Source of the DNA: a virus
Lineage: Duplodnaviria; Caudoviricetes
DNA: 64,000 bases
IMG/VR virus record: IMGVR_UViG_3300018430_000021
Span: 32,001-96,000 of that record
Strand: one strand, 5' to 3'
Both the position numbers and the translations under genes were made by a program. Under the pieces are notes generated by a model. The model had not been told where the DNA came from. It ran no database searches and worked only from the letters and a program-made list of their open reading frames with translations. Below, in pieces: positions 8,967 through 43,413 of the stretch (position 1 is its first letter; each line of letters starts with the position of its first letter).

Positions 8967-9449
8967 ATGAAGGAAAATGATTTATCAGATCAAGAGTTTA
9001 TCGAAATTGTTAAACAAACCAAATCTATGTTGTATGCGTCTAAACTTTGTGGCATGGCATATACTACATTTATTAGGCGGGCTAAAAAACTAGGCGTTTA
9101 TGAACCAAATCAAAGCGGAAAAGGTTTACCTAAAAAACAACCGTTAACACCGTTAAATGAAATTTTTAATGGAATGCATCCAGAATATCAGACCTATAAA
9201 TTAAAAATAAGGTTGATACGAGAAGGATATATAGAAGACAAATGCTCTATATGCGGATGGGATAAAAAGCCTGCGGGAAGAGAATTTACACCATGCGAGC
9301 TTGACCATATAAATGGAAATCCAACCGACCATAGATTAGAAAATTTGCGTTTAATATGCCCGAATTGCCATAGTTTAACACAAACATATAGATTTAGGCG
9401 CGGTAAAACTAATAATAAGAATGGAAAAGAATTTTTAGAAAACAGTTAG
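8967..9449 (+). CDS. HNH endonuclease (free-standing, homing-type)
   Basis: CSICG, ELDHINGNPTDHRLENLRLICPNCH; AT-rich. Confidence 0.9.
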   Translation: MKENDLSDQEFIEIVKQTKSMLYASKLCGMAYTTFIRRAKKLGVYEPNQSGKGLPKKQPLTPLNEIFNGMHPEYQTYKLKIRLIREGYIEDKCSICGWDKKPAGREFTPCELDHINGNPTDHRLENLRLICPNCHSLTQTYRFRRGKTNNKNGKEFLENS

Positions 9450-9470
9450 CCTCCTTCTTTGGGTTGAAGG

Positions 9471-9506
9471 GAACCGGTAGATCTGTAAGGGTCTGCCGGT
9501 TTTTTA
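9471..9506 (+). terminator. Intrinsic terminator
   Basis: aaccggtagatct-gta-agggtctgccggtt followed by T-run. Confidence 0.8.
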
Positions 9507-9557
9507 TTTCTAATTATTTCTATTTACAAGATATTCAGAATTTACTATATTATAGTC

Positions 9558-9845
9558 ATGGAAATCAATAAGACTATTAAAATTAAACACGGCCGCGGCC
9601 AATCGATGCTAGAGTTAAAAATCCGCAACATTCTGGATGTCGTAAAATCGACGGGATATATCGAGCTTAGATTCTGGAGTCCGGAAGATAGCCATAAAAA
9701 GTTTTTATACATTTTCGACGACGAACCGATTACGTGGTACGACAAGGACGGTAACGAATCCACTGACTACGAGAAGTTGGTAGATACGTTGTCGGTTTAC
9801 GCCGAACAGACGAAACTAAAAGATGCCCTGGCAAGTCTGAATTAA
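9558..9845 (+). CDS. Hypothetical protein, leaderless, C-terminal tail (KDALASLN)
   Basis: ATG 6 nt after TATATT. Confidence 0.75.
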   Translation: MEINKTIKIKHGRGQSMLELKIRNILDVVKSTGYIELRFWSPEDSHKKFLYIFDDEPITWYDKDGNESTDYEKLVDTLSVYAEQTKLKDALASLN

Positions 9846-9915
9846 AACTCAATTAGATTTTGATTTACAAGACTTTTAGAATTTTCTATATTATAGTCAT
9901 GCAAGAGAGGTTAAA

Positions 9916-10221
9916 ATGGTAATTCACGGTACTAATAGTGATGACATGCCGATACTGTTTGATACGACGAAGATCGATGCAACATACTGTTGCCAGAATG
10001 ATCACGGTTTATGGAAAGTTGTATTGACCCTTAGTAACGGCCTGGAATTCTGGTTGCCGCGATATAACACTATCAAAATCAACGGCGTCAACATTATGCA
10101 TGAGGGCGATATGGCTAAGTATAAGAAGATGGCCGAGGTCATCAATACAATCATTGATCTCGAACGTCAGGACCCTCCGATAGACATGGAAAAGTACGCT
10201 GAGATTGGCAAGTCGAAGTAA
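9916..10221 (+). CDS. Hypothetical protein, paralog of 10748
   Basis: Shared INGV and DPPxDxxK motifs. Confidence 0.75.
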   Translation: MVIHGTNSDDMPILFDTTKIDATYCCQNDHGLWKVVLTLSNGLEFWLPRYNTIKINGVNIMHEGDMAKYKKMAEVINTIIDLERQDPPIDMEKYAEIGKSK

Positions 10222-10275
10222 AGAAAAACTAAATAAGTCGTTTCCAAACTTCTAATAATTTCCTATATTATAGTC

Positions 10276-10674
10276 ATGAGCATTAACAAGACATCAAAAC
10301 TGCTTCGCATTCTTAAAACACATACTGGTCTGATTCAAACAAAGCCAGTCGGAAAGGAATTGAGGTTTGACTACAACTTTCAAGGGTTTCATCTGCCTGT
10401 TGTAGAACCGTATCTCATGAGTGAAGGTTATCTTCAAAAGAAGTATTTTTGGATTTATAACTTTTTTGACTATTCACACCTGCATGACTATTGCATGGAA
10501 GACATATTGTCTGGTAGAAATAATGTAAACAATAATACTGTATTCGTAGTCCAGTATGACAGGATGACAGTGCCCAAGCTGCCTAAGTTTATTGACCAAC
10601 AAATTGAATACATCCAAAAGGCTATCATGCGGTTTGAACAGCAAAAGATTGAAAAGGCATTGGATGCTCTGTAA
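10276..10674 (+). CDS. Hypothetical protein, leaderless, C-terminal tail (EKALDAL)
   Basis: ATG 6 nt after TATATT. Confidence 0.75.
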   Translation: MSINKTSKLLRILKTHTGLIQTKPVGKELRFDYNFQGFHLPVVEPYLMSEGYLQKKYFWIYNFFDYSHLHDYCMEDILSGRNNVNNNTVFVVQYDRMTVPKLPKFIDQQIEYIQKAIMRFEQQKIEKALDAL

Positions 10675-10747
10675 TAAAATTCTTTAAACAAATCGTTTCC
10701 AATCTTCTAACAATTTTCTATATTATGAATATCAACGAGAGGCTATA

Positions 10748-11089
10748 ATGTTTATCACCGGCTATAAAACAATGAATAACATAAAAGTCCCGATGTGTTT
10801 CGAGACAAAGGACATTTGCGCTATTATACCGTTTTTGAATGACGGACATTATTGGGAAGGTCGAATAAGGAAGGAAGACCGCGTAATAACTATCTTTCTT
10901 AATACGATAGGCGGGCAACAGATCGGTATTTCTGATGGCGAAACTATCATGATTAACGGTGTTCCGGTAACGAATGACTGCACGGAAAATGCACTTAAGA
11001 TTATCGAGCACTTTATGATGTGCATGAATCTGGAGACTACTGATCCTCCCGTGGACTTGGACAAGCTGAAAGAAAAAGTTAAGAAATAA
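10748..11089 (+). CDS. Hypothetical protein, paralog of 9916
   Basis: Shared INGV and DPPVDLDK. Confidence 0.75.
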   Translation: MFITGYKTMNNIKVPMCFETKDICAIIPFLNDGHYWEGRIRKEDRVITIFLNTIGGQQIGISDGETIMINGVPVTNDCTENALKIIEHFMMCMNLETTDPPVDLDKLKEKVKK

Positions 11090-11127
11090 AGGTTTACAAC
11101 ATTCGGATATTTAACTATATTTAGAAC

Positions 11128-11424
11128 ATGAAACGAATCAAGATTGAACGCCTCACGGAAAAAGACTTATTTATCCCGTATGAGAAGATAGTTGGAGTAA
11201 CCGGCGGGCCAAGTACGATTCTGATAGATTACAAGACCGTCGACGATATGGGCTGGCATGTATGGCTCGCAAACGAGACCACGATGAGCTGGACAAGAAT
11301 CGACGACGACGGAAGCCAGGTAAAGAATACGCTGGTAACTAACGAGGATTTCAAGGCGTTTGTCGAATTCCTCACCGCAGTTGCCAAACAGAACGAGAGT
11401 GTCAAGGCGATAGAAAGTTTATAG
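11128..11424 (+). CDS. Hypothetical protein, leaderless, C-terminal tail (VKAIESL)
   Basis: ATG 6 nt after TATATT. Confidence 0.75.
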   Translation: MKRIKIERLTEKDLFIPYEKIVGVTGGPSTILIDYKTVDDMGWHVWLANETTMSWTRIDDDGSQVKNTLVTNEDFKAFVEFLTAVAKQNESVKAIESL

Positions 11425-11516
11425 TTATGGAACACCGCAATAAAAATTTTACTAGATTCCGGGTTTACAAGTTCCAAGAATTTAACTATAACAATAAACA
11501 AAAAGGAAACAAAATC

Positions 11517-12047: not shown

Positions 12048-12128
12048 CCGAAAGAAAAAACCCAAATGTTTCTGTTTACGCCTTGTCCATGGTTTTCTAT
12101 ATTGTAATTAACAACGAGAGGAAAGATT

Positions 12129-15685: not shown

Positions 15686-15759
15686 GGATGGATAGCTCAA
15701 TCGGTTAGAGCTCCGGACTCATAACCCGTAGGTTCTCGGTTCAAGTCCGAGTCCATCCA
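15686..15759 (+). tRNA. tRNA with CAT anticodon (elongator Met or Ile2; not initiator)
   Basis: Acceptor GGATGGA/TCCATCC with paired G1-C72, D arm gctc..gagc, loop ctCATaa, T arm ctcgg-ttcaagt-ccgag; promoter TTGACA 15648 / TATATT 15671. Confidence 0.88.
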
Positions 15760-22704: not shown

Positions 22705-23040
22705 ATGTTTATTTCTTTCGTGAATTCCAAGACTGGTGAAGAACTGTTTGACAAGGCACAGAGTTTGCATCTCGGTAGCGATGAACCGAATGGATATTCT
22801 TTGCAAGTGCGGACGACAGATTTCGAAGTTTCGCTGTATGATACATGCAGTTGGGACATAATCGAACTTTGGCAATCGGATGAATGCTTTACCTACAAGT
22901 TTAACGAAACAACGAAGAAGTATGAAGGGCCTTGCCTGAAGTATATCAAAAGCGTGTTTTCGTCGAATCCGATTAAACCCACAATCGAATCTTATACGAG
23001 ACCGGAGCTCGCACATATCATGAAGTGGCTTATTGCATAA
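22705..23040 (+). CDS. Hypothetical protein
   Basis: Own promoter and RBS. Confidence 0.75.
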   Translation: MFISFVNSKTGEELFDKAQSLHLGSDEPNGYSLQVRTTDFEVSLYDTCSWDIIELWQSDECFTYKFNETTKKYEGPCLKYIKSVFSSNPIKPTIESYTRPELAHIMKWLIA

Positions 23041-23142
23041 GACAATGTTAACCTCCTGTAAGACTGGGAATAATTTCCCAGTCTTTTTCATTTACAAAAG
23101 ATTCAGAAGTTTCTATATTATAATCAAACAAGAGAGGTTAAT

Positions 23143-25164: not shown

Positions 25165-25491
25165 ATGTTTATCTACGGAATTCTAAGAAATAAGCTCCGT
25201 ATCTCGGAGGAAAAGGCAAACGAACTGGCCAAGATTCTGCACGACGAGGTGGAAAAGGAAAAGGAAAAGGACAAGGTCCGCCAGGAATACATCAAGAAGA
25301 TGGAAGAACAGGCCGCAAGCTATGAAAAGACCATCGAAGACATGAAGAACGAATCCCTTGACTCTATGGTTAAAAGGATCGCTGCCGAAACGGTTGAAAA
25401 GTCCATCAGGGAAAACCTTACGCTCGAAATCCATGCCTGGGGTGGAGCAGATGTCAACGGGCATTTGGAATGGAACGGAAAGGAATTCTAA
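25165..25491 (+). CDS. Hypothetical coiled-coil protein
   Basis: In an operon with 24869. Confidence 0.75.
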   Translation: MFIYGILRNKLRISEEKANELAKILHDEVEKEKEKDKVRQEYIKKMEEQAASYEKTIEDMKNESLDSMVKRIAAETVEKSIRENLTLEIHAWGGADVNGHLEWNGKEF

Positions 25492-25574
25492 GTTTAGTTA
25501 ACCTCGAGAGGCCTGCGGGAAATCCAGCGGGTCTTTTTCTTTTATATACTCATTAAAAACTCTTTATTATTCGT

Positions 25575-25650
25575 CCATATTTGAGTTATACGGGCTTTAT
25601 TTAATAAAAGAGTATAAGTTATAAGCCATTTAAATAAGAGTCTTTAAATG
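25575..25650. repeat. 76-bp non-coding element, copy A
   Basis: CCATATTTGAG..GAGTA..GAGTCTTTAAATG. Confidence 0.75.
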
Positions 25651-25752
25651 ATGTTTATATCGGCTGTGCAATAGATTAAATTTTCTACTCATTTTCTATT
25701 GACAACTTCTAGTTTTATTTCTATATTATGAACATAAACAAGAGGTTAACGA

Positions 25753-27482: not shown

Positions 27483-27710
27483 ATGTGTAAGAAAGCAACA
27501 TTCGGTCAAATCGCAGCATCCTTGATGAACGCACGGGCGGAGCATCCCGAGCTTCGAGACATGGAGCTGGCTGTCGAAATCCGCGAAGGGAAGGAATACA
27601 GGAACATTACCGGTATCGAATCGTTCTTCCGTTGCCACGTGGACACGAGCAAGAACAAGGTTGACAAGATGACTACGGCCATGGCGTTCAAGCTCGACTG
27701 GGACAACTAG
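27483..27710 (+). CDS. Hypothetical protein
   Basis: Own promoter and RBS. Confidence 0.75.
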   Translation: MCKKATFGQIAASLMNARAEHPELRDMELAVEIREGKEYRNITGIESFFRCHVDTSKNKVDKMTTAMAFKLDWDN

Positions 27711-27793
27711 TCCGAAAATAAAAACCGGACTAAATATGTTTACGATTTAATCCGGTTTTACTATCTTTTAATCATAACGAAGAGGTTAACAAT

Positions 27794-28031: not shown

Positions 28032-28241
28032 ATGGAGATGGGGCCGGAAGAATTCAAAGATTTCATGGATGCGCAAAAGGACGCAATAGAAGTTGCCAAG
28101 TGGTTATGGGGCGAGAAAATCGGCCGAGACCCTGGCGACGAGTTCGTCATCAAGTGGATTAAGGAAAACGCAGAAGATTTCAGAAAGAACTGGCCCACTT
28201 ATTACGAAGAGTGGAAGAAAAAGAAACAGAGTTTGCATTAA
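28032..28241 (+). CDS. DUF4032-like small protein
   Basis: AIEVAKWLWGEKIGRDPG..WIKENAEDFR. Confidence 0.6.
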   Translation: MEMGPEEFKDFMDAQKDAIEVAKWLWGEKIGRDPGDEFVIKWIKENAEDFRKNWPTYYEEWKKKKQSLH

Positions 28242-28318
28242 CCTCCTGGAAAGCCCGCGGGAAAAATTCCTGCGGGTTTTTTATTTACAAAACCTTCGGA
28301 ATTAATTATATTATAGTC

Positions 28319-28711
28319 ATGAGCGTAATTCTTGAAATTCAATATTTGGAAAGATATAATACTGACCGTGTGAAAAAGGGACAGATTCATTACGCAGATC
28401 CTATTTCGTTAAAAGAAGTAACGGGTTCTTCAATAGAATGGTTTGGACTGGACATTAAATGGGAAAACAGTTTTGGCGATATTCAGCATATTGAGTTCTG
28501 CGAGCCCTGTGCATCATTAAAGTATGACCAACGGCTTATTATCTACAACGACAAGACAAATGAAGAATTCTATAGAGTCGAACAAATCCAGGAAGAAAAC
28601 AGAAAATACAAAGACCCGGAGCGATGCCAGCGGGCGTTTGCTATTTGTCGTGATGCCCTTTGGAACATAGAAAAATACAAGACGATAATCGCTATTGAAG
28701 AAAACCTGTAG
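28319..28711 (+). CDS. Hypothetical protein, leaderless, paralog of 21019, tail (IAIEENL)
   Basis: ATG 6 nt after TATATT. Confidence 0.8.
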   Translation: MSVILEIQYLERYNTDRVKKGQIHYADPISLKEVTGSSIEWFGLDIKWENSFGDIQHIEFCEPCASLKYDQRLIIYNDKTNEEFYRVEQIQEENRKYKDPERCQRAFAICRDALWNIEKYKTIIAIEENL

Positions 28712-28784
28712 AAAAATTCTAATCTTTTTCTATTGACAAAAAGCTCAGAAGTTTCTATATTATGAATATACAAGAGAGGTTAAT

Positions 28785-28961
28785 ATGGAAGCTGAAGAAA
28801 TTAAATCTATCGTGAAGGACCACCTTGTCAGCAAGGGATGTTCGGTTGAGCTCGCGGACGAGTACCTGGCGAGCTATGCAGAGACAATCTATGAAGATTT
28901 CGAGAATGGCGAATCCTGCGAAGAAATAGCCCAGACCATTCTCGACAATGAAAACCTGTAG
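28785..28961 (+). CDS. Small acidic protein (58 aa, ends ENL)
   Basis: Own promoter and RBS; flanked by a direct repeat. Confidence 0.7.
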   Translation: MEAEEIKSIVKDHLVSKGCSVELADEYLASYAETIYEDFENGESCEEIAQTILDNENL

Positions 28962-29035
28962 AAAAATTCTAATCTTTTTCTATTGACAAAAAGCTTGGAA
29001 GTTTCTATATTATAATCATCAACAAGAGGTTAACA

Positions 29036-29488
29036 ATGAAAAAGATTTATAAGATTACTGGTTGCACCACCGACGTTCATGAAGATTCTTACAAGGACGG
29101 AGAAGGTGCTTTCTGCAACAACTGGAGCATTCGCGAGACTAACGCTCCGCTCGAACTCAAGGAATATCCTTCGCTGAAGGAACTGTTGGCGGAAGTCGGC
29201 GAAAAGTACCTTATTCTTCCGTACAAGCAGAAGGCCGAAGAAATCGAGAAGTATTGGTTCCATTTCGAAGACCCGGACTTGAAGGATGAACTTCGTTTCG
29301 ATAACGACTGCATGGTGGACGTGAATAACGAACGAATCGACGACAATGACCTCGCCAAGTGGAAGAAAGGGAAGATGAAGCTTTATAACGCTCACACTGT
29401 GCTCTACGTGAAGGCGTTCCTCGTCGAAGACGTCAAGCTCGAGGATATGGAAAAGGACGCAAACGACTTGAAGATTGAATATTGTTAA
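29036..29488 (+). CDS. Hypothetical protein
   Basis: Own promoter and RBS. Confidence 0.8.
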   Translation: MKKIYKITGCTTDVHEDSYKDGEGAFCNNWSIRETNAPLELKEYPSLKELLAEVGEKYLILPYKQKAEEIEKYWFHFEDPDLKDELRFDNDCMVDVNNERIDDNDLAKWKKGKMKLYNAHTVLYVKAFLVEDVKLEDMEKDANDLKIEYC

Positions 29489-29568
29489 CCTGAAGAAAAA
29501 TACCGGAACAAATCTATGGACAAGTTCCGGTATTTTTTCTATATTATGAATATACAAGAGAGGTTAAC

Positions 29569-29676
29569 ATGACTGCATTAGTAATTATTATCGGTTCTGT
29601 CGCTGTAACGGCTGTTGTCACTAATCCCAAGATGTATGACCTCTTTGACAAGGCTAAGTCGAAGGAAAAAAACTAA
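29569..29676 (+). CDS. Small membrane peptide (35 aa)
   Basis: Own promoter and RBS; hydrophobic N-terminus. Confidence 0.6.
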   Translation: MTALVIIIGSVAVTAVVTNPKMYDLFDKAKSKEKN

Positions 29677-29740
29677 ATCTTTTGGCTTACGACTTCTAAA
29701 AATCTTTCTATATTATAATCATCAACAAGAGGTTAACACA

Positions 29741-30136
29741 ATGGATAAAATCAAGGCTGTACGCTTCCACAACGAACTCGACGCACTCATCAAGAAATTT
29801 GCCCAGGAACACGGAATGGATGTTCATTCGGGAAGATGCTCGTTCACTTCCACGGGACTGTCCTATAACATCTCGCTCTACGAAACCGACGGAGACGGTA
29901 ACGAAGCGATGAGCGAATACGCTTGGAACCAGATGATGAGCAGGGCCAATCGTTTCGGTCTCGGGTTTGACCCTCGTGGCCATAAGTTCTACACGAACAC
30001 CGCCCGCCCGAAGCCGTTGCAAATCATGGGTTATGACCCGTACAAGAAGTATTGCTGGTCCTGCAAGGATCCGGTTACGGGAAGTGAATTCACTTGCAAC
30101 TCGGATTATATCGACTGGAACCGTCACATCGGCTAG
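29741..30136 (+). CDS. Hypothetical protein
   Basis: Own promoter and RBS. Confidence 0.8.
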   Translation: MDKIKAVRFHNELDALIKKFAQEHGMDVHSGRCSFTSTGLSYNISLYETDGDGNEAMSEYAWNQMMSRANRFGLGFDPRGHKFYTNTARPKPLQIMGYDPYKKYCWSCKDPVTGSEFTCNSDYIDWNRHIG

Positions 30137-30218
30137 TCCGAAAGAAAAAGTCCGGACTAAAATGTTTACAAAGTTCGGACTTTTTTCTATATTATAATCA
30201 ACAACAAGAGGTTAACAC

Positions 30219-30931: not shown

Positions 30932-31028
30932 TATCAACCGGTTTGTCTGAGACAAAAATTAGAATATAACCGGTTGACAAAATCCTCCGGTTTTTCTATA
31001 TTATAAATATCAACAACAAGAGGTTAAT

Positions 31029-31394
31029 ATGAGTCGTTCCTATCGCAAAGTTTTCAAATGCCCGTGTGATTGTGTTTCTCGCGAATCGATGAAGAAATGG
31101 AAGCATAACACCAAGCAACAGCGTCGTGCACGTGAAAAGGCCCAGATGAACGGCATCATCCAGGACGAAGAAGGTTTCGACGAAGAAACGTGCACACCTA
31201 TCAAGTACCAGAAGGTGAAGGACATGAACGACTGGGCCGGTCCTCATGATGGATGGAATCGTATCGGTCCCAAGTCCGCGGAAAAGAACATCGAGGAATG
31301 GAAGAATCTCCCTGAACACCTCAAGGACATGGAACCGTCTCCGGCACAGATGGAAAAGATTGAAAAGACTCGCTACCAGTATTTTCGCAAGTAA
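31029..31394 (+). CDS. Hypothetical basic protein (MSRSYRK family), related to 37676
   Basis: MSR..WK..RR..W..P.DGWN shared. Confidence 0.75.
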   Translation: MSRSYRKVFKCPCDCVSRESMKKWKHNTKQQRRAREKAQMNGIIQDEEGFDEETCTPIKYQKVKDMNDWAGPHDGWNRIGPKSAEKNIEEWKNLPEHLKDMEPSPAQMEKIEKTRYQYFRK

Positions 31395-31473
31395 TTACTG
31401 TTAACTCCCTGATGATGAGAGACCGCTGGCAAATGGCTGGCGGTCTTTCTCTTTTATATCCTTAAATAACGCT

Positions 31474-31550
31474 CCATATTTGAGCCATAATCTTCTCTTT
31501 ATATAAGAGTAATATAATTTATCGCCCATTATAATTGAGTCTTTAAAATG
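31474..31550. repeat. 76-bp non-coding element, copy B
   Basis: CCATATTTGAG..GAGTA..GAGTCTTTAAAATG. Confidence 0.75.
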
Positions 31551-31651
31551 AGTTTCTTACACAAGTGCAGTCAAGAAAATATTTTAACTTTTGGTATTTA
31601 CAAAAAGTAAAGAACTTTCTATATTATGAACATAAACAAGAGGTTAACAAC

Positions 31652-31780
31652 ATGAATAAAGATTTCAGATATTTTGAACGCCCACATTATCAAGCTCCGG
31701 TTGAAGAACCGAAGCAACAGTTTTCTGCCCCGATGCTCATCGTCAAGAACAATGAACTTGTCGTGGAACAGAAGGTTTAA
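31652..31780 (+). CDS. Small hypothetical protein
   Basis: Own promoter and RBS. Confidence 0.65.
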   Translation: MNKDFRYFERPHYQAPVEEPKQQFSAPMLIVKNNELVVEQKV

Positions 31781-32089
31781 ATGGTCATTATCCACGGGAC
31801 AAAGATAACCAACATTGTCATTTTGGTAACCAAGATGACAAAGGTTCTCGTACAGCGTGATAGAAAGTATGATCATGACCGTCACTGTATGGTCTATACA
31901 GACAGTCTTCAACTGGTTATCCATTACCGTGACGACAAAAAGCTTAAAGGAAATCGTCACGAATGGAGCAAAGTTCTTTACGAATGGAGCAACGACGATG
32001 ACAGATGGAAGTTATATGCTTTAGCTCCGGGTGACGTTATCCAGCATAACGGGACGAGGATTACTATCCCCGACATTTCCAAGCTGTAG
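31781..32089 (+). CDS. Hypothetical protein
   Basis: Coupled to the upstream gene. Confidence 0.7.
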   Translation: MVIIHGTKITNIVILVTKMTKVLVQRDRKYDHDRHCMVYTDSLQLVIHYRDDKKLKGNRHEWSKVLYEWSNDDDRWKLYALAPGDVIQHNGTRITIPDISKL

Positions 32090-32235
32090 CGTGACGACCA
32101 AAAGGAATTCGCTTGCAAGAAACTGACCAACGACCTGATGACCCTGGTAACTCTGGAGAAAAATCTTTCTTAAAAGTCCTTTACGAATTCTTCGCGAATA
32201 ACTATATTTGAAATATCAACAAGAGGTTAATAACA

Positions 32236-32376
32236 ATGTTTTTAAATTTCCTTTCAAAAGAAGCTCGCGAAGCACTGCGAGATGCTAACGGCCTTAAGCT
32301 TCCTGAACCGGTTGTAACCGGGGTAACTCATCAGACTTTCATCCAGAACATGATTCGTAACGGGAGGAAGCGTTAA
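32236..32376 (+). CDS. Small hypothetical protein (46 aa)
   Basis: Own promoter and RBS; TAATG coupling to the next gene. Confidence 0.65.
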   Translation: MFLNFLSKEAREALRDANGLKLPEPVVTGVTHQTFIQNMIRNGRKR

Positions 32377-32819
32377 TGTTCCACATGGAGACCGTTACCA
32401 AGCCGATGACGAAGAAAGAACTTCGTGAACTGAATTACGATGCGACAGAATGCTTGTATCTTTTGCTGTGGCGTCTTTTCGACGATCAGAAGGTACAAAC
32501 TGAACTGGCCGACGAATATGCTCGTTTCGTGAAAGAAAACAACCGTATTTCCAGGCATCTGTCCGACATCATGCAGCGTGATACAAGACGCAGGGATAAG
32601 TGGTTCTGGCCGGTAAGACAAAACCCGAATACGACCAAAGAAGAAAGAATGCTCGCCTTTACCAAGTGTATCAAGGCTTTTCATTACGAGATGAAACGTT
32701 ATGAAGCCGTGCTCGCGAAGCATTTCGACAAGATTCTCAAATACTGCGAAGAAAACAAAATCGACTTGAACCAGTACAAGAACCCGCCTTACTGGCGTAA
32801 CTGGAAGGAGAAAGACTAA
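32376..32819 (+). CDS. Hypothetical protein, tandem paralog of 32819
   Basis: TKxMxxKEL, KWFWPV, TKExxxLAxTK. Confidence 0.8.
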   Translation: MFHMETVTKPMTKKELRELNYDATECLYLLLWRLFDDQKVQTELADEYARFVKENNRISRHLSDIMQRDTRRRDKWFWPVRQNPNTTKEERMLAFTKCIKAFHYEMKRYEAVLAKHFDKILKYCEENKIDLNQYKNPPYWRNWKEKD

Positions 32820-33226
32820 TGTTTTCCGAACAGAACATAACTAAGGCGATGAGTCAGAAAGAACTTATGGCCTTCGTAAGAGACATGTTTGAACATGACC
32901 TTCTACTTGACCTCCTGTGTGTCATCAAGAACGAAGACATCAAAACCAAATTTCCTGAAGAACACAAACGCCTCGAATCCGAATGGGAAAAAATCCATCA
33001 CGTGGAGATGTATATCAGCGAGGTGTGTGCACGTGTCATGGAAAAATGGTTCTGGCCTGTATATTGGAACAGTTCCAAGACCAAAGAGGACAAGCTTCTG
33101 GCATATACCAAGATGATTATGTTCAGAAAGAACCGGATGAATCGTTTGAACAAGGTTCTTTACCACCGTTATAAGAATATAGTCGATTATGGCAGGGCAA
33201 CTGGCCTGTTTGCCTCCAGGTGTTAA
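32819..33226 (+). CDS. Hypothetical protein, tandem paralog of 32376
   Basis: Same motifs. Confidence 0.8.
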   Translation: MFSEQNITKAMSQKELMAFVRDMFEHDLLLDLLCVIKNEDIKTKFPEEHKRLESEWEKIHHVEMYISEVCARVMEKWFWPVYWNSSKTKEDKLLAYTKMIMFRKNRMNRLNKVLYHRYKNIVDYGRATGLFASRC

Positions 33227-33353
33227 CCTCATGAGGGGACCAGAGGCGGGCTCGGTTAGTTCCGTCTCTGGTCGCTTGAATTTAAAATTCTTATCTTTTA
33301 CCGTTTACAATATCTTTAGAATTTTCTATATTGATAATATCAAGAGGTTAACA

Positions 33354-33488
33354 ATGAAAACAAAAAGATTTTCCACATTCGATGTCATCTTAATCACTGC
33401 ATTCCTGTTCTTCCTGTACATTACCGGTCTTTGGAAGATTGTCGCCTTAATCGTGTTCATTCTTTTTGTCTGCTGGATGATGTCGTAA
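33354..33488 (+). CDS. Small membrane protein
   Basis: Own promoter and RBS; two hydrophobic segments. Confidence 0.65.
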   Translation: MKTKRFSTFDVILITAFLFFLYITGLWKIVALIVFILFVCWMMS

Positions 33489-33874
33489 TGATTACAGTAC
33501 AGATTAAAGTCAAGTGGTATGATTATTGGACCAAGAAATATGGTCCGAAACAGCAACACTATTCTTCCATCGTGGGCGAAAACACAAAGCTTGATACAGA
33601 TGAATATGAATCCGATGGCGTATTTTGTTTGAAGGTATCTGCAGACTGGAAGGTCCAGCCAAAGGAATGGTTTAAAAACTCCGGCGGTAATAATGGCATC
33701 TATAGCGGTGCTAACTGCAGACAGTATCTTCAGTTCTGGGATGGAAAAAAGCTGTTGAAGGAATTCGAATGGAAAGAAAGGCCCGGCAAGGAAGGCTTAC
33801 TGGCCCAGAAGGTTCATATCGAGAACTGGATTAAGCAGTGCATCGAGCTCAGTAAGGTGGACATATTGAAATAA
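33488..33874 (+). CDS. Hypothetical protein (ends LSKVDILK)
   Basis: TAATG coupling. Confidence 0.7.
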   Translation: MITVQIKVKWYDYWTKKYGPKQQHYSSIVGENTKLDTDEYESDGVFCLKVSADWKVQPKEWFKNSGGNNGIYSGANCRQYLQFWDGKKLLKEFEWKERPGKEGLLAQKVHIENWIKQCIELSKVDILK

Positions 33875-33946
33875 AATTTATTTCTTTTCCACTTTACAAC
33901 TTCCAAATAATTTCCTATATTATAAGCATCAACAAGAGAGGTTATT

Positions 33947-34360
33947 ATGGCAAAGATTGATTTGACAAAGTATGAACGACAGATTGACCAGCTGGTTGAT
34001 GAAGCTATTGACTGCGTAACGACGAATGCTCTCGGAATTAAGGGTGATATAGAAGATTCTCAAATTAAAGACTACAACGAGGTTTATCAACAGATTCAAG
34101 ACTATCTGGCCGAGAAGTGGCACAAGGCTAAGGTCGAACGTGAAATGAAGATTAAGCTGGCCAAGGTCGAGCAGGATGTGAAAGAAAATCTCAAGACCCG
34201 TGCAGAAGATGGTATCGTTTCGTTCCGTTCGACTGAAGAAGCTCTTAAGGCTGAAAAGCTTTTGAAAGATAAAGGCTATGAAACCAAGATGTATTGGGAC
34301 CGTGGCTGGGAAAATGTCGAATACTGGATTAACTGGAAGACAGGAAAGTTGAACAAATAA
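33947..34360 (+). CDS. Hypothetical protein
   Basis: Own promoter and RBS. Confidence 0.8.
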   Translation: MAKIDLTKYERQIDQLVDEAIDCVTTNALGIKGDIEDSQIKDYNEVYQQIQDYLAEKWHKAKVEREMKIKLAKVEQDVKENLKTRAEDGIVSFRSTEEALKAEKLLKDKGYETKMYWDRGWENVEYWINWKTGKLNK

Positions 34361-34431
34361 AATTCTTCTTTTCCACTTTACAACTTCCAAATAATTTCCT
34401 ATATTATAAGCATCAACAAGAGGTTAACAAC

Positions 34432-34848
34432 ATGAAAACTTTCAACATCATCGCCAAAATCAAGAATATCTTCGCAAAGAAAGACTATACCGCTCTTCAG
34501 GTCGAAAACTTCGAAGAACACGGGTATGACCTGAAACTCTTGCGAGAAGGAAAGACTGTCTGGAAGGGCCAGCTCTGCAATACACGAGTCTGTTACGATT
34601 GTCATCTGGCTAAAAAGGCCATTGGGTTCTCTGACCGTCGCCAACCGAACATCAATACGAACTTTACCATGTTCTGGTGTGGAACCCCGGGTGCCGCGAC
34701 CGATACGATTGTTATCGGTAACTGGAGTCTTAACCTCGGAAGCTATCCGAAGGATAAGGTCGTGGAAATTCTTCGCAAGCACATCCCGGCGGACAACTTC
34801 TTCTCCGAACACGACAACGATTCTATCGAACGAGCTTTCAAAGTATAA
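34432..34848 (+). CDS. Hypothetical protein
   Basis: Own promoter and RBS. Confidence 0.8.
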   Translation: MKTFNIIAKIKNIFAKKDYTALQVENFEEHGYDLKLLREGKTVWKGQLCNTRVCYDCHLAKKAIGFSDRRQPNINTNFTMFWCGTPGAATDTIVIGNWSLNLGSYPKDKVVEILRKHIPADNFFSEHDNDSIERAFKV

Positions 34849-34966
34849 CGTTAACCTCGAGACCTTCGGGTTGGTCTAGGCTGGCCCGAAGGTTTTTTCT
34901 CTTCTTTTTATGTTGACATCTTCTGGATATTTTTCTATATTATGAATATCATCAAGAGGTTAACAT

Positions 34967-36035: not shown

Positions 36036-36395
36036 ATGAAAAAAATCATCATCTTCGCTCTTCTCATCGTTTCTATCGCTTTCGCTTCTGAAACCGACAA
36101 GGGAATCGTAAACGTTACCAAGAACAAGTACGGGACTGAAATGTCCTTCTGGCCGAATACGAGCCTCGAAGGTATCGGCCATGTCTATTCCATCGTGTTG
36201 AACGATTGCGAAGGTTTCAAGTCGGTGGAAATCAAGTTCATGGACGGAACCGTCCAGTATTACTCTTTCGACGAGGAAAAGATGCCTTCTGTTACAACCA
36301 AGTCCGAAGACAGGGTTCTTTCCTGGGAATCTCTTACCTTGCCGAAGTTTATGAAGGAATGGAATCGTTACCTGTCATTCTTCAAGAACGTGTAA
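36036..36395 (+). CDS. Exported protein with Sec signal peptide
   Basis: MKKIIIFALLIVSIAFA-S cleavage site. Confidence 0.75.
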   Translation: MKKIIIFALLIVSIAFASETDKGIVNVTKNKYGTEMSFWPNTSLEGIGHVYSIVLNDCEGFKSVEIKFMDGTVQYYSFDEEKMPSVTTKSEDRVLSWESLTLPKFMKEWNRYLSFFKNV

Positions 36396-36487
36396 GTTTA
36401 GCTTAACCTCGATGATGGACCGCTGGGCATGGGCGCCTGGCGGTCTTTTTCATTTTATACTCATATATTTTCTATCTTATATTCACT

Positions 36488-36563
36488 CCATATTTGAGTT
36501 GTGGAGAGAGTTTTATAATAGAGTAAGATGTTTATACTCGTTATAAAAAGAGTCTTTAAAATG
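36488..36563. repeat. 76-bp non-coding element, copy C
   Basis: CCATATTTGAG..GAGTA..GAGTCTTTAAAATG. Confidence 0.75.
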
Positions 36564-36664
36564 ATTTTCTTTCGTGAGTCCATACAAGAAAAATTCTTAT
36601 ATTTTCTAGTTGACAAAAACCAAATCTTTTTCTATATTATAAGTATCAACAAGAGAGGTTAACA

Positions 36665-36961: not shown

Positions 36962-37350
36962 TGATACCAGAATATATGATGACACGCGAAGAACGTTACC
37001 ATTATCAAATGGAAATGGAAGAAAGAGAAAATTCTGAACGCATCAAAGATCTTTCTGTCGATTATTCATCTATCAAGGAAGAAATCAAGAAACTTAACGA
37101 TGAATTTGACACACTCAAGACATATATCAGCGATGTTGTTTATTACCCCGCGGTAAACGTTCGCGATCCAAAGATCGAAATTAAACGCGAAGCACGTCAA
37201 TGGGCTGCAGTTTTTACATTCGGTAATCGTAGAGCTTATATCTACACAACTGGCGTAGTCAAGTTTATCAACTCAAAAGGTAATGAAAAACGTGTTAAAT
37301 TCAAAACCCGTGGTGAATTAAAGGATGCATTCATCAGAGAGTATAAATGA
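36961..37350 (+). CDS. Hypothetical protein
   Basis: Translationally coupled. Confidence 0.75.
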   Translation: MIPEYMMTREERYHYQMEMEERENSERIKDLSVDYSSIKEEIKKLNDEFDTLKTYISDVVYYPAVNVRDPKIEIKREARQWAAVFTFGNRRAYIYTTGVVKFINSKGNEKRVKFKTRGELKDAFIREYK

Positions 37351-37643
37351 GTAAGTTCATCATCGTGAATCCCAAGACCGGGAAACCGGTCCAGATTAAC
37401 GGCTATGTGAACAAGATCCGTAAGCTCGGGGAAGTAACCACCGACAAGAATGGCCAGCCCTGTCTGAACTTTATCCGCGTCTGTGACTGTTACGGCCCGA
37501 AAGGTTACATTTCCGGTGCTTATACTGTATTGGTCGAGGGCCAGACTAAAGGAATCAAGCCTGATACAGTAGAGAAGCTTAACCAGGTTCGCGAGCAGAT
37601 CTGGAAAAAACTTATAGAAAAGAACGGCTTACAATCCCTGTAG
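37347..37643 (+). CDS. Hypothetical protein
   Basis: ATGA overlap. Confidence 0.75.
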   Translation: MSKFIIVNPKTGKPVQINGYVNKIRKLGEVTTDKNGQPCLNFIRVCDCYGPKGYISGAYTVLVEGQTKGIKPDTVEKLNQVREQIWKKLIEKNGLQSL

Positions 37644-39967: not shown

Positions 39968-40068
39968 TTATTACCTCTCGATACTGGCTATAATATAGCA
40001 ACAGTTCTCGCTTTCGTAAATAGGAAAAGGCCAGGATTTTACTCCCGGCCTTCCCGTATCGAGGTTAA

Positions 40069-40317
40069 CTAAACGCTTCCTTCCATCGATTTCATCCGGA
40101 CGTTATCCTCGGTCTCCGAAGCGAAACCCATGACGTAGTTTAACGCTTCGCCGTTTTCCGACTCGAAATGAATCGCATTCCCACGTTTTTCGTACCGTAC
40201 GAGGTCTATGTCCCCGTTATGTTCCGGATGTAGATTCCGATTGCGAAAGTCGTCGAGACCGGCCAGTTCATCGTAGGCTGCGTCTTCCGACGTATAGACG
40301 ATAAATCCCTTGAGCAT
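40069..40317 (-). CDS. Hypothetical protein
   Basis: Coupled to 40574. Confidence 0.7.
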   Translation of the reverse strand: MLKGFIVYTSEDAAYDELAGLDDFRNRNLHPEHNGDIDLVRYEKRGNAIHFESENGEALNYVMGFASETEDNVRMKSMEGSV

Positions 40318-40574: not shown

Positions 40575-40648
40575 GTTTAACCTCTTTCGTTATATTCATA
40601 ATATAGAAATATTCGAACGTAACGTAAATGAAAATCTTAGAGAAGTTT

Positions 40649-40891
40649 TTAACAGCTGTGCACCGTCCAGAGCATGCAGGCCGTTGACTCGACCCATATC
40701 CTGTCAGACTTGAACTCTTCACGACGGGCGAATCTATCGTGCAATAGAGTGGCCGTTCCCAGCCAATTCTTCTGCTGGAGAATCTCCTCGACCTCTTCAG
40801 CCGATAAATGCTCCGCCCGGCCATCGTCTCCAGGGAATAGGCCAGCGAGCAGTTCCTTTCTTACTTCTGCGGTGAATTCTTCTTCGTTCAT
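40649..40891 (-). CDS. Hypothetical protein, leaderless
   Basis: ATG 6 nt after minus-strand TATATT. Confidence 0.65.
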   Translation of the reverse strand: MNEEEFTAEVRKELLAGLFPGDDGRAEHLSAEEVEEILQQKNWLGTATLLHDRFARREEFKSDRIWVESTACMLWTVHSC

Positions 40892-40941
40892 GACCATAAT
40901 ATAGAAATAACCGTCAGTTCCGTCAATAGGTAATTATCGGG

Positions 40942-41274
40942 TTATTTTCCCGGCAACGCATCGATAGCCAGCTCATTCTCCAGCCCGAGCAGACGCTGTA
41001 GCCAACCGTCACCGAATTTGACGATTTCCTGCAGGCGTAAATCTATCCGGCCGGCGTTAATATCGTTGAACGGTATCTGATAAACTCGGGTATCGAACCA
41101 GTCCTTCGCCGGCCCGGTATAGAGGATAAGCACAGCCTTCTGGTCCTGATCCCAGGACGGGCGATAATAACCTGTCCAGTCAACGTCCAGATTATAGACA
41201 ACGCCGGAAAGCTGGAGTCGTTTATTGATCTCGTCCAGCTTCTCGGCTATGTGCGACATAGGATAACCGGCCAT
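40942..41274 (-). CDS. Hypothetical protein with tail (LAIDALPGK); start uncertain
   Basis: Follows the 41279 gene. Confidence 0.65.
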   Translation of the reverse strand: MAGYPMSHIAEKLDEINKRLQLSGVVYNLDVDWTGYYRPSWDQDQKAVLILYTGPAKDWFDTRVYQIPFNDINAGRIDLRLQEIVKFGDGWLQRLLGLENELAIDALPGK

Positions 41275-41278
41275 AGAC

Positions 41279-41473
41279 TTATCCCAACAGGCTACCGATT
41301 CCGCCAACTACCCAAGTCGCACCGTGAGCTACGTTAGATACGATTCCCGTAGCCAGAGCCACGATGGAGTTGACCGACCCGCAGAAGGAACCTGTCACGT
41401 TACTGTTGGTGGTCATGGCTCCGATACCGAACAGGACCAGAAGGACGATGATGAGAACTTTGAACTTTGTCAT
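41279..41473 (-). CDS. Small membrane or exported protein
   Basis: Own promoter and RBS. Confidence 0.7.
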   Translation of the reverse strand: MTKFKVLIIVLLVLFGIGAMTTNSNVTGSFCGSVNSIVALATGIVSNVAHGATWVVGGIGSLLG

Positions 41474-41557
41474 GTGATTAACCTCTCTTTGATATTCATA
41501 ATATAGAAAAAGAACCGGCATCCGTAAACCGATTCTTTTCCAATTTTTCTTACGGGA

Positions 41558-41917
41558 TTACATCGAACGCTTTTTCATCGTGTCAAATCCTTCGAACCAT
41601 TCATCGATCCACGTCTTATTGCTCTTCATCTGGTCATACATTTCCTTTATCCACTGATGCTTGTCAAGGATTTCGGGTTCGACCTCTTCCGATTCTTGCG
41701 CGATAGTCAACCAATGTTTCGCGTCCTTCACGCTAAAGTCGTCTATCTCGCGGTCGAAATCGTAAAAATCTTGATTTTCGTCCGAATCGTCGGAATAATC
41801 AATCGTAAGCGTCTCGTCGTATTCTTCCAACCGCTTCAAGTATTCGTCACGTTGTTCGCTAGAGATGAGCGCTTCGATGCCCGTTTTAGATTGCGGAATA
41901 TGTACCAAATAGTTCAT
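41558..41917 (-). CDS. Hypothetical acidic protein
   Basis: Own promoter and RBS. Confidence 0.75.
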   Translation of the reverse strand: MNYLVHIPQSKTGIEALISSEQRDEYLKRLEEYDETLTIDYSDDSDENQDFYDFDREIDDFSVKDAKHWLTIAQESEEVEPEILDKHQWIKEMYDQMKSNKTWIDEWFEGFDTMKKRSM

Positions 41918-42110
41918 TTTAACCTCTCTTGATGATGATATTCATAATATAGAAAATCGAATCCAATCCGTAAGCCATTATTATATTCTTTTTTCTTACG
42001 GGATCGCACAAAGGAGACTATGCCGTATGCGATCCCGTGATTTATTTCTTTTCTTTTTTCGTTTACATTTACTTCCAAACTTTCTATATTATAAGCATCA
42101 AGAGGTTAAC

Positions 42111-42515
42111 ATGATTACGAATTTCAAGACTACCAGCATTTCCGAAGAACTTGCCATCATGAACATGGCCGATGTCGATTTCACGATGTGGGGCGAACCG
42201 GCCGAACTTGCGAAGGACGAATATTACCTCGAGACGTTTAACCACCGCCGTGAGATGGAAGCGAAGGGTTATGTGCTCAATCCTCATTTCGACGAGAATA
42301 TGTCATGGTGGAAGGACAAGCACAGCGATCGCCCGTATGACAAGTTCCTCGATTTCGACTGCAACGAATTCGTCACTCCGGAAGAACTCCAATTGTACGA
42401 AGACAAATGTAAGGCGGTCTCTTTCGGATATACGCTGTACCAACGTCTTCTTACCGAAGAAGAACAAGAAGAAGACTACAAGATCTACTGCGAAGAATTC
42501 CATAAGGCGGCATAG
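42111..42515 (+). CDS. Hypothetical acidic protein
   Basis: Own promoter and RBS. Confidence 0.75.
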   Translation: MITNFKTTSISEELAIMNMADVDFTMWGEPAELAKDEYYLETFNHRREMEAKGYVLNPHFDENMSWWKDKHSDRPYDKFLDFDCNEFVTPEELQLYEDKCKAVSFGYTLYQRLLTEEEQEEDYKIYCEEFHKAA

Positions 42516-42602
42516 CGAGCCCGCGCCTTTATTTCTAACTTTTCATGTTGACAACTTCCGGATATTTTACTATATTATAAGTATCAACGACAAGAGGTTA
42601 AC

Positions 42603-42911
42603 ATGAATAACGAAGAATTGAATACATACGCAAACCGAATCGAAACCGCCGGCCTGAAGCGCGACGCGAAAGTAACCGACCTTCATCATTATGCCGTGGC
42701 CGTGGAAGTTACGCCGAAGACATACGGCGAAATAGTCGAAAGCATGCCCGACGCGTTCGAATACTGCTTCGACTACTTCGACCAGAAGGCCGACAAAGAA
42801 GAATCCGTCTTCATGTTCTACCTCGAAGACTGCAACGGCGAGGACGTCGACGCGATAGAAAACTGGCTGAAGACGCATACCGGCTGGCGGTCTTACGAAT
42901 ACAATGGCTAG
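42603..42911 (+). CDS. Hypothetical acidic protein
   Basis: Own promoter and RBS. Confidence 0.75.
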   Translation: MNNEELNTYANRIETAGLKRDAKVTDLHHYAVAVEVTPKTYGEIVESMPDAFEYCFDYFDQKADKEESVFMFYLEDCNGEDVDAIENWLKTHTGWRSYEYNG

Positions 42912-43013
42912 TCCGAAAGAAAACAATACAAGAAAAAGGTTTACAACTTCGTCCGGTTTTTCTATATTAATAACGTAAGCAATGTCGCTTACGTAAAACC
43001 GAACGAGGTTAAC

Positions 43014-43295
43014 ATGATTAAAAGCTTCAGCTATACCAACGCCAAGGGTCATACTACCGTAAGGATCTGTAACGTGGTACATGAAAACGAAACCGAGATT
43101 CGCGGGTTCGATTACAACAAGATGACCCGAGCGGAACAGGAAATCGTAAACAAGGTCTATCCCAACGACCACAAGCCGACTCCGTGTCCTACCGAATTCC
43201 ACAAGACGAGCGAGGTGGACTACGATTCACTCGGTATTCCGAAAGAACTGTTCTCGAAGGCCTACAGGGTTTTCAAGAAGAGCAAGTGTTTCTAA
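43014..43295 (+). CDS. Hypothetical protein
   Basis: Promoter, 5' hairpin, RBS. Confidence 0.75.
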   Translation: MIKSFSYTNAKGHTTVRICNVVHENETEIRGFDYNKMTRAEQEIVNKVYPNDHKPTPCPTEFHKTSEVDYDSLGIPKELFSKAYRVFKKSKCF

Positions 43296-43413
43296 CCTCA
43301 GTTGATAAGAATCTCCAGAATGTCGTGAGATATACTGAAGATTTTTTACTTGATTTTTTGGTTTACAACCTCTTCCAAATTTACTATATTATAAGTATCA
43401 ACAAGAGGTTAAC

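What the first reader, a model, noticed from the sequence alone, without database searches (positions are those of the whole stretch)
9445..43299. Anti-Shine-Dalgarno element (GTTAACCTC) placed between stop codons and terminators
Seen: the reverse complement of the cassette RBS (GAGGTTAAC), or a close variant, sits at or just after the stop codon and a few nt before the terminator hairpin. Sites: 23047, 25497, 28238, 29484, 31400 (variant), 33222, 34850, 36403, 43293, 9445 (variant), and the minus strand at 40061-40069. In the cases I read, no ATG follows on the opposite strand, so these are not RBSs of antisense genes. ACCTCC also matches the 16S rRNA anti-SD. Inference: once a transcript is complete, its 3' end could pair with its own RBS (8-9 bp) as a translation timer or 5'-3' closure, or act in trans on other phage or host RBSs. 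Leaderless mRNAs would be unaffected.
Basis: partly seen in the sequence, partly recalled or inferred. Interest (0 to 1): 0.72.

Follow-up and report, generated by a model that had tools for sequence, protein, structure and literature searches.

The report
Ribosome-site mask ahead of phage terminators
In the early-gene region of a giant T4-like gut phage, many transcription units end with a short sequence that is the mirror complement of the genes' shared ribosome-binding site, set just before a strong terminator; it probably lets a finished message fold over and block a ribosome-binding site, but this is untested.

Summary
GTTAACCTC or a close variant, the reverse complement of the cassette RBS GAGGTTAAC, lies in sense orientation from 4 nt before to 7 nt after the stop codon at 11 sites in the window. 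In five of them the motif's own TAA is the stop. Each site is followed by a strong stand-alone terminator.

The same module occurs in four related uncultured phage contigs. There the core TAACCTC(C) is invariant while every hairpin differs. In two relatives it extends to TTTCATGTTAACCTCC, the complement of SD + ATG + AAA. I did not find it in the first 50 kb of RB49, the phage in which PeSL (promoter-early stem-loop) cassettes were first described.

The motif matches the consensus translation initiation region. It does not match the TIR of its own or the next gene any better than other TIRs, so I found no cis-specific covariation. Folding predicts that it pairs with the 5'-proximal RBS of the finished transcript, or with the next RBS in some read-through transcripts. 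In the 3' fragment alone it is predicted to be single-stranded.

Best reading (0.45): a portable RNA mask for cassette RBSs, acting mainly in cis, like the icaR 3'UTR. This is inference from sequence and folding only.

Novelty: a new variant of a known kind. Earlier notes of this scan report similar elements in other phages (e1-5653796, e1-5683986); I did not check them.

The parts
9445..9453 (+). Anti-RBS variant GTTAGCCTC. Its TAG is the stop of gene 8967-9449. Terminator hairpin at about 9472-9501.
23047..23055 (+). Exact GTTAACCTC, 6 nt after the stop of gene 22705-23040. Terminator at 23060-23085, then the promoter at 23091.
25497..25505 (+). Exact GTTAACCTC, 5 nt after the stop of gene 25165-25491. 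Terminator at 25508-25535.
28237..28245 (+). ATTAACCTC. Its TAA is the stop of gene 28032-28241. Terminator at 28253-28278. The next gene (28319) is leaderless.
29484..29492 (+). GTTAACCTG. Its TAA is the stop of gene 29036-29488. It is followed by a PeSL-type hairpin (29499-29534) that embraces the -35 box.
31400..31408 (+). Variant GTTAACTCC, 5 nt after the stop of gene 31029-31394. Terminator at 31414-31453.
33222..33230 (+). Exact GTTAACCTC. Its TAA is the stop of gene 32819-33226. Long hairpin at about 33238-33282. In strain L190 that gene is absent and the same TAA ends the gene upstream.
34850..34858 (+). Exact GTTAACCTC, 1 nt after the stop of gene 34432-34848. Terminator at 34861-34894. 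The whole spacer is identical in three strains whose protein is 95-96% identical.
36402..36410 (+). CTTAACCTC, 6 nt after the stop of gene 36036-36395. Terminator at 36417-36447.
43293..43299 (+). Core only, TAACCTC. Its TAA is the stop of gene 43014-43295. Weak hairpin at 43310-43343.
40061..40069 (-). Exact GTTAACCTC on the minus strand, overlapping the TAG stop of minus-strand gene 40069-40317. Terminator at about 40055-40023, then a minus-strand promoter.
34420..34428 (+). Example of the partner sequence: cassette RBS GAGGTTAAC of gene 34432. It stands for about 21 exact plus-strand RBS copies in the window (e.g. 22275, 24859, 27473, 29026, 34956, 43005).

Best explanation
The motif is the business end of a portable 3' module built as: stop codon, anti-TIR (translation initiation region complement) with core UAACCUC(C), purine-rich spacer, GC-rich terminator hairpin, U tail.

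The module is transcribed as the last single-stranded stretch of an early transcription unit and is held there by the terminator hairpin. It is complementary to the consensus translation initiation region of the cassette genes: GAGGUUAAC here, GGAGGUUAACAUGAAA in relatives.

Once RNA polymerase has terminated, the motif can pair with a free cassette RBS. The most likely partner is the 5'-proximal RBS of the same message, which would close the mRNA on itself and limit further initiation. Each early message would then give a burst of protein. If the terminator is read through, the same sequence can instead mask the next cassette's RBS.

Because cassettes are shuffled between strains, the module matches the consensus RBS rather than one particular partner.

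Shown: position, conservation, complementarity, and predicted folds. Inferred: that the pairing happens in the cell and lowers translation or mRNA stability.
For: - Position. The motif is strand-specific and sits at stop codons. It is coupled to the strongest stand-alone terminators.
- Complementarity before terminators. The 30 nt ahead of stand-alone hairpins are more complementary to each genome's set of start regions than the segments ahead of other cassettes: median -8.6 against about -5.3 kcal/mol, p = 8e-9.
- Conservation. The module is kept in five related genomes with the core invariant and hairpins, spacers and flanks all different. In G001 and G006 the complementarity extends across the start codon and an AAA codon.
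- A second pair. A different pre-terminator sequence, ATCTCCTTGTTG, in G001 and G005 is the complement of the other common leader, CAACAAGGAGAT.
- Predicted folding of whole units. Pairing with the first RBS has probability 0.73-1.0 in 7 of 8 units here. It is the dominant partner in 10 of 14 units of relatives. It is lost on scrambling the motif: 0.48 against 0.07, p = 8e-4.
- Accessibility. In the isolated 3' fragment the 9-mer is unpaired with probability 0.86-0.98 at 8 of 11 sites.
- Precedent. Anti-SD-like 8-mers hundreds of nt from the RBS, including at one of two 3'UTR sites tested, pair with the RBS in vivo, speed decay and block initiation, and are normally selected against (PMC12697547). 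The icaR 3'UTR pairs with its own SD (PMC3868564).
Against: - I found no covariation with the unit's own RBS. In G001 the first RBS of the eight units ranks 4, 54, 4, 70, 87, 59, 42 and 10 of 105 for duplex strength.
- G004 uses ATAACCTCC although its commonest SD is GAGGTTAA.
- Some units that end in the motif have no matching SD. Examples are the leaderless gene before G001 site 289989, genes 8967 and 28032 here, and the AAGGAATTAAC RBS of gene 36036.
- Anti-RBS k-mers are not depleted inside the cassette genes.
- Long-range fold predictions are unreliable and ignore ribosomes.
- The phage already has a RegA-type protein repressor.
- There is no transcript evidence.
Confidence: 0.45

Rival explanations
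1. Read-through insulator. The anti-TIR lies upstream of the cassette promoter and the RBS lies downstream of it. Transcripts that run through the terminator would therefore fold the next gene's RBS into a long hairpin, and only transcripts started at the cassette's own promoter would be translated. This is the logic of T4 genes e, soc, 49 and I-TevI (my knowledge).
For: The geometry fits at 8 of 11 sites here: the motif lies 76-122 nt, or about 245 nt, upstream of a GAGGTTAA[CT] RBS. In modelled read-through RNAs the motif pairs with the downstream RBS with probability 0.83-1.0 in 3 of 7 cases. In segments that lack the unit's own RBS, this holds in 4 of 7.
Against: - The motif goes with the strongest terminators, where read-through is least. 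It is nearly absent from the many cassettes that have weak or no terminators.
- The downstream gene is leaderless at 9445 and 28237 here and at G001 284653.
- In G001 the downstream RBS ranks 41, 8, 91, 20, 61, 71, 96 and 104 of 105 for complementarity.
Confidence: 0.15
2. Trans-acting 3'-end RNA. After the message decays, the fragment 'anti-TIR + hairpin + U tail' survives, as 3'UTR-derived small RNAs such as CpxQ or DapZ do (my knowledge). The fragments accumulate and pair with the RBSs of the whole early cassette class. This would be an RNA counterpart of RegA that shuts early translation off.
For: - The motif equals the consensus, not a neighbour's RBS. Its median duplex energy with all cassette start regions is -10 to -15 kcal/mol here.
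- It is present on units that have no SD of their own.
- The seed is predicted single-stranded, directly 5' of a long helix formed by the purine spacer with the U tail.
- There are many copies per genome.
Against: - No small transcript has been shown.
- No stand-alone copy (promoter, then motif, then terminator) was seen.
- A 9-nt seed in trans competes poorly with a strong RBS.
- The host and its RNA chaperones are unknown.
Confidence: 0.15
3. A DNA-level feature without an RNA role. The motif would be the left border of the terminator-promoter cassette, supplying a stop codon and forming an inverted repeat with the RBS. It would be kept by recombination or gene conversion, or be a leftover of inverted start regions.
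For: - The motif supplies the stop codon at 5 of 11 sites.
- Strain L190 lacks gene 32819-33226 exactly up to the motif's TAA, which then ends the upstream gene.
- Relatives keep the complement of ATG and AAA as well, i.e. a mirrored start region.
- Strain-level gene gains and losses have their joints inside the cassettes.
- Whole spacers are identical between strains whose genes differ by about 4%.
Against: - The reverse complement of the promoter, expected beside an inverted start region, is absent; a hairpin follows directly.
- The hairpins of different copies are unrelated in sequence, so this is not a recently spread repeat.
- The other, more numerous cassette borders use a different post-stop motif.
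- None of the strain joints listed lies at the motif; that table was cut (8 joints not shown).
- No tyrosine recombinase was found in the 291 kb held, and GTTAACC does not fit the integron core GTTRRRY.
Confidence: 0.15

Closest known systems
icaR mRNA 5'UTR-3'UTR pairing in Staphylococcus aureus (PMC3868564), and the hbs 5'/3'-UTR interaction in Bacillus subtilis (PMC5737220)
   Same: A pyrimidine-rich anti-SD stretch in the 3'UTR of a message is complementary to an SD at its 5' end. Pairing is expected to block initiation and speed decay.
   Different: Here it is one near-invariant element repeated at the ends of many unrelated transcription units in a virus, directly ahead of the terminator and often overlapping the stop codon. 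It matches the class consensus rather than co-evolving with a single gene. It has not been tested.
PeSL (promoter-early stem-loop) cassettes of T4-type phages RB49/phi1, PST and nt-1 (PMC2839356, PMC4122927)
   Same: Sigma70-like early promoters are joined to stem-loop terminators and a shared SD and start. They are clustered among small orphan genes in hyperplastic regions. Gene-sized gains and losses between strains have joints inside the cassettes.
   Different: A term search of the first PeSL paper (PMC2839356) found no mention of an anti-SD element, and I read only the abstract of the second. I found none ahead of the terminators in the first 50 kb of RB49. The element goes with the stand-alone terminators, not with the hairpins that embrace the -35 box.
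RBS occlusion in read-through transcripts of T4 genes e, soc, 49 and I-TevI (my knowledge of McPheeters 1986 and later work; not checked here)
   Same: The complement of the RBS lies upstream of a promoter and the RBS lies downstream, so that only promoter-proximal transcripts have a free RBS.
   Different: In T4 each hairpin is gene-specific and local. Here a terminator sits inside the loop, the partner RBS is often absent or poorly matched in relatives, and the element is generic.
3'UTR-derived small RNAs of enterobacteria (CpxQ, DapZ, SroC; reviewed in PMC7821165)
   Same: A single-stranded seed lies just 5' of the mRNA's own Rho-independent terminator. The seed is complementary to the start regions of other messages.
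   Different: No processed fragment has been shown, the seed is only an anti-SD core, and the proposed targets are the phage's own gene class.

Membership tests
PeSL-type regulatory cassettes | Strong sigma70-like early promoter joined to a stem-loop terminator or attenuator, ending in a shared SD and start codon | tested here: met
   The window holds 58 matches to TTTACA-N17-TATATT, with GAGGTTAAC + ATG downstream. Hairpins lie ahead of the -35 box or around it.
PeSL-type regulatory cassettes | Clustered among small orphan genes, with joints of gene gains and losses between related phages inside the cassettes | tested here: met
   The motif is confined to 50-80 kb of the contig. Strain contigs skip 31003-34393 and 36963-37354, with joints inside cassettes. 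L189 carries a different gene after the same RBS. L190 lacks gene 32819-33226.
PeSL-type regulatory cassettes | An anti-SD element as part of the described cassette | tested here: not met
   A term search of PMC2839356 found no such mention. No CCUC-type motif precedes the intergenic terminators in RB49 1-50,000. The anti-SD is therefore an addition to the cassette, not a defining feature of it.
icaR-type 5'-3' UTR pairing | 3'UTR sequence complementary to the SD of the same mRNA | tested here: met
   There are 8-9 complementary bases to the first RBS in 8 of 11 units. The predicted pairing probability is 0.73-1.0 in 7 of 8 units. The test fails for units that are leaderless or have a poor SD.
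icaR-type 5'-3' UTR pairing | Pairing shown in vivo or in vitro, with an effect on translation or on RNase III cleavage | not testable with these tools
   The RNA libraries were available only as contigs, which break at repeats and show no transcript ends.
T4-type read-through RBS occlusion | The complement lies upstream of the transcription start and pairs with the RBS of the gene downstream | tested here: inconclusive
   Pairing is predicted in 3-4 of 7 read-through models here. In G001 the downstream RBS is poorly matched or absent, and two downstream genes here are leaderless.
3'UTR-derived small RNA | Accessible seed 5' of the mRNA terminator | tested here: met
   The unpaired probability is 0.86-0.98 at 8 of 11 sites. 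This is a prediction only.
3'UTR-derived small RNA | A stable processed 3' fragment that acts in trans | not testable with these tools
   No raw-read RNA data for the phage were laid. Contigs cannot show transcript ends.
Integron gene cassette (attC) | IntI tyrosine recombinase, and an attC site with the GTTRRRY core after the stop codon | tested here: not met
   PF00589 is absent from the 291 kb held, while it was found in all 14 control genomes. GTTAACC does not fit GTTRRRY, and the hairpins are plain GC-rich terminators with U tails. The contig is only about 70% complete.

The most novel reading that the evidence does not exclude
The module is a universal, portable 'translation-off' tag for a whole temporal class of genes. 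Any gene shuffled in front of it yields a message that silences itself. The terminator-protected 3' fragments then accumulate as a pool of small RNAs that titrate the shared early RBS. This would make an RNA counterpart of the RegA repressor that times the early-to-middle switch while sparing leaderless and non-consensus messages.
Probability: 0.2. Interest if true: 0.8.

Novelty: new variant of a known kind. Interest (0 to 1): 0.62.

Why it matters
Anti-SD sequences far from the RBS were recently shown to repress bacterial genes, and they are normally purged from them. Here a virus appears to have done the opposite. It has fixed such a sequence, as a standard part, at the 3' end of many early transcription units and has kept it across related genomes while everything around it changed.

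If the pairing is real, it gives a simple sequence-encoded way to cap the output of each early message. It would also show how modular gene shuffling can carry translational control along with promoter and terminator. Finally, it offers a compact part for synthetic biology: promoter, RBS, terminator and a matching off-switch.

It also adds a feature to the PeSL concept that a term search of the first PeSL paper does not show and that I did not see in the RB49 sample.

Tried and rejected
- Megablast of 15 kb against GenBank phages found nothing.
- A collection scan for TCATGTTAACCTCC returned only unrelated single hits, which are ordinary RBS + ATG on the other strand.
- A scan for motif + promoter returned mostly one unrelated prophage locus. 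Apart from G001, already in hand, it gave one new relative, G006.
- The MoxR-like protein as a query found only distant contigs without cassettes.
- Cis-specific covariation with the unit's own, the first or the downstream RBS was not found. Genome-level matching of motif variant to SD variant was not found either.
- Anti-RBS k-mers are not significantly depleted inside cassette genes compared with synonymous shuffles; control k-mers were equally low (a first run timed out).
- Metatranscriptome contigs from four studies cover 90-99% alike relatives of the stretch. They break at the repeated cassettes, so they show neither transcription, nor transcript ends, nor a small RNA.
- RegB (PF10715) was not found, but the control genomes were silent too, so this says nothing.
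- Antisense genes are rejected: frames from the mirrored ATG in G001 run 0-38 codons and are not conserved.
- Mimicry of the 16S 3' end was considered. UAACCUCC resembles UCACCUCC, but I see no role for a mimic that the complement reading does not already explain.
- Rfam has no family at these sites.

Full report
**Setting**

The window is bases 32,001-96,000 of a 291-kb IMG/VR virus contig. It carries a GroEL, a T4 baseplate protein and, just past the window, a RegA-type translational repressor. Earlier notes of this scan call it a T4-like giant phage of ruminant guts. The runs that hold the stretch are faecal and gut metagenomes, some from sheep.

Window positions from about 1.5 to 44 kb form a dense series of small genes. 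The window holds 58 matches to TTTACA-N17-TATATT. Most are followed by AAGAGGTTAAC and ATG, and several by an ATG 6 nt after the -10 box, which makes those genes leaderless. This is the architecture described as PeSL (promoter-early stem-loop) cassettes in RB49/phi1, PST and nt-1 (PMC2839356, PMC4122927).

- GTTAACCTC occurs 28 times against 0.5 expected. Twenty-two copies are on the minus strand; apart from the post-stop copy at 40061-40069, these are the plus-strand RBS GAGGTTAAC.
- All eleven listed sites exist, five of them exact and six as variants.
- Across the whole contig, 8 of the 37 plus-strand matches with at most one mismatch start from 4 nt before to 7 nt after a stop codon. I expect about 0.3.
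- At 9445, 28237, 29484, 33222 and 43293 the motif's own TAA or TAG is the stop.
- Every site is followed, after 3-20 nt of mostly purines, by a GC-rich hairpin and a T-rich tract.
- Gene ends with the motif have far stronger hairpins than other gene ends: -20.9 against -6.8 kcal/mol, p = 4e-5.
- Cassettes whose hairpin embraces the -35 box, or that have no hairpin, almost never carry the motif. They have a different post-stop sequence, TAGTCCGAAAGAAAA.

**Relatives**

Pattern scans of IMG/VR found four related contigs with the same cassettes: G001 (424 kb, complete), G004, G005 and G006.

All four have the same module in the sense orientation of their genes: stop, motif, spacer, hairpin, T-rich tract, promoter.

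The core TAACCTC(C) is invariant, with information content peaking at 1.5-2.3 bits per position. The hairpins, spacers and flanks are unrelated from copy to copy.

In G001 and G006 the conserved part is longer: TTTCATGTTAACCTCC, the exact complement of GGAGGTTAACATGAAA. The element therefore mirrors a whole translation initiation region, not only the SD. The antisense frames opened by that mirrored ATG run 0-38 codons and are not conserved, so they are not genes.

A second pre-terminator sequence in G001 and G005, ATCTCCTTGTTG, is the complement of the other common leader, CAACAAGGAGAT.

Overall, the 30 nt ahead of stand-alone terminators are more complementary to each genome's start regions than the segments ahead of other cassettes (p = 8e-9).

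In the first 50 kb of RB49, none of the intergenic terminators is preceded by such a motif.

**What the motif does not do**

It does not track a particular partner. In G001, where start regions are heterogeneous (AGAGGTTAAA, GGAGATTAAC, AAGGAGATTA), the motif stays GTTAACCTCC. Duplex strength with the own, first or downstream start region ranks anywhere from 3 to 104 of 105. G004 uses ATAACCTCC although GAGGTTAA is its commonest SD.

Some units that end in the motif begin with a leaderless gene or have no matching SD. The motif behaves as the complement of the class consensus.

**What folding predicts**

- Whole units, modelled from the predicted transcription start to the U tail, pair the motif with the first RBS with probability 0.73-1.0 in 7 of 8 cases here.
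- In relatives the first RBS is the dominant partner in 10 of 14 cases.
- Scrambling the nine bases removes the pairing: median 0.48 against 0.07, p = 8e-4.
- If the terminator is read through, the motif pairs instead with the next RBS in 3 of 7 models.
- In the 3' fragment alone, the nine bases are single-stranded beside a long helix in which the purine spacer pairs with the U tail.

These are thermodynamic predictions without ribosomes. They gain weight from a recent massively parallel assay in B. subtilis. In that assay, anti-SD-like 8-mers placed hundreds of nt from the RBS, including at one of two 3'UTR positions tested, paired with the RBS in vivo, sped decay and blocked initiation. Such sequences are depleted from native genes (PMC12697547). 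The icaR 3'UTR is the classical single-gene case (PMC3868564).

**Evolutionary behaviour**

Three strains whose protein is 95-96% identical have a spacer (stop, motif, terminator, promoter, RBS) identical to this genome's, while the gene itself differs by about 4%.

One strain carries a different gene after the same RBS. Another lacks gene 32819-33226 altogether, and there the motif's TAA ends the upstream gene. Contigs from RNA libraries show further gene-sized skips with joints inside the cassettes.

The module therefore travels as part of the terminator-promoter cassette and has to work with whichever gene lands in front of it. That fits a consensus-matching element.

**Reading**

I favour an RNA role, at about 0.75 in all. 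The alternatives do not explain all of the following:
- strict sense orientation;
- placement inside the transcript just ahead of the strongest terminators;
- a conserved core amid unrelated hairpins;
- complementarity that extends over the start codon in relatives.

Within the RNA readings I put self-closure of the finished transcript first (0.45), then read-through masking (0.15) and a trans-acting 3' fragment (0.15). These three are not exclusive.

A purely DNA-level border or remnant keeps 0.15. Its support is the stop-codon supply and the strain deletion at the motif. Against it: the reverse complement of the promoter expected beside an inverted start region is absent, no recombinase was found, and none of the strain joints listed (the table was cut) falls on the motif.

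Nothing here shows expression. The RNA libraries were available only as contigs that break at repeats.

**Novelty**

The principle is known: a 3'UTR anti-SD pairing with the RBS. The cassette type is also known: PeSL. What I could not find described is their combination as a near-invariant, repeated 3' part conserved over a phage clade. Earlier notes of this scan report similar elements in other phages (e1-5653796, e1-5683986, e1-5644734). I did not test them.

Noticed in passing
window 9558, 11128, 13341, 13779, 16664, 17560, 28319 (starts): Many cassette genes look leaderless: the ATG lies 6 nt after the TATATT -10 box and there is no SD. My crude caller finds about 43 such starts in the contig.
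   Followed up: partly
window 27700-27722, 30133-30147, 42925-42939; G001 (L016-L018), many sites: A second conserved post-stop sequence precedes the hairpins that embrace the -35 box. It is TAGTCCGAAAGAAAA here and (T)AACTGAAAGAAAA in G001. Its A-rich part can pair with the T-rich tract after the hairpin.
   Followed up: no
window 25540-25700, 31455-31600, 36450-36612: Three copies of a conserved non-coding element of about 160 nt lie between a motif-bearing terminator and the next promoter. Invariant islands are CTCCATATTTGAG and GAGTCTTTAAA. There is no Rfam match.
   Followed up: partly
G000:C1:96588-96848 (-), 588 nt beyond the window's end: A homologue of the T4 RegA translational repressor (PF01818, E = 1e-22). 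The phage therefore also has a protein repressor of early messages.
   Followed up: no
L190:1220-1300 against window 32760-33230; L189:1300-1370 against window 34967-: Strain-level cassette shuffling. L190 lacks gene 32819-33226, and L189 has a different gene behind the same RBS. RNA-library contigs skip 31003-34393, 36963-37354 and 28301-29705, with joints inside the cassettes.
   Followed up: partly
window 25163: One related strain (run X17) has AAGAGAGGTTAA inserted behind 25163. This gives the translationally coupled gene 25165 its own cassette-type RBS (table 4).
   Followed up: no
window 8835-8918 and 15686-15759: Two tRNA genes each sit directly behind an early cassette promoter (8797 and 15648) and ahead of a terminator.
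   Followed up: no
G001 about 329,440 (L018) and G005 about 19,650 (L019): The pre-terminator sequence ATCTCCTTGTTG is the complement of the alternative leader CAACAAGGAGAT. It may be a second anti-leader / leader pair.
   Followed up: partly
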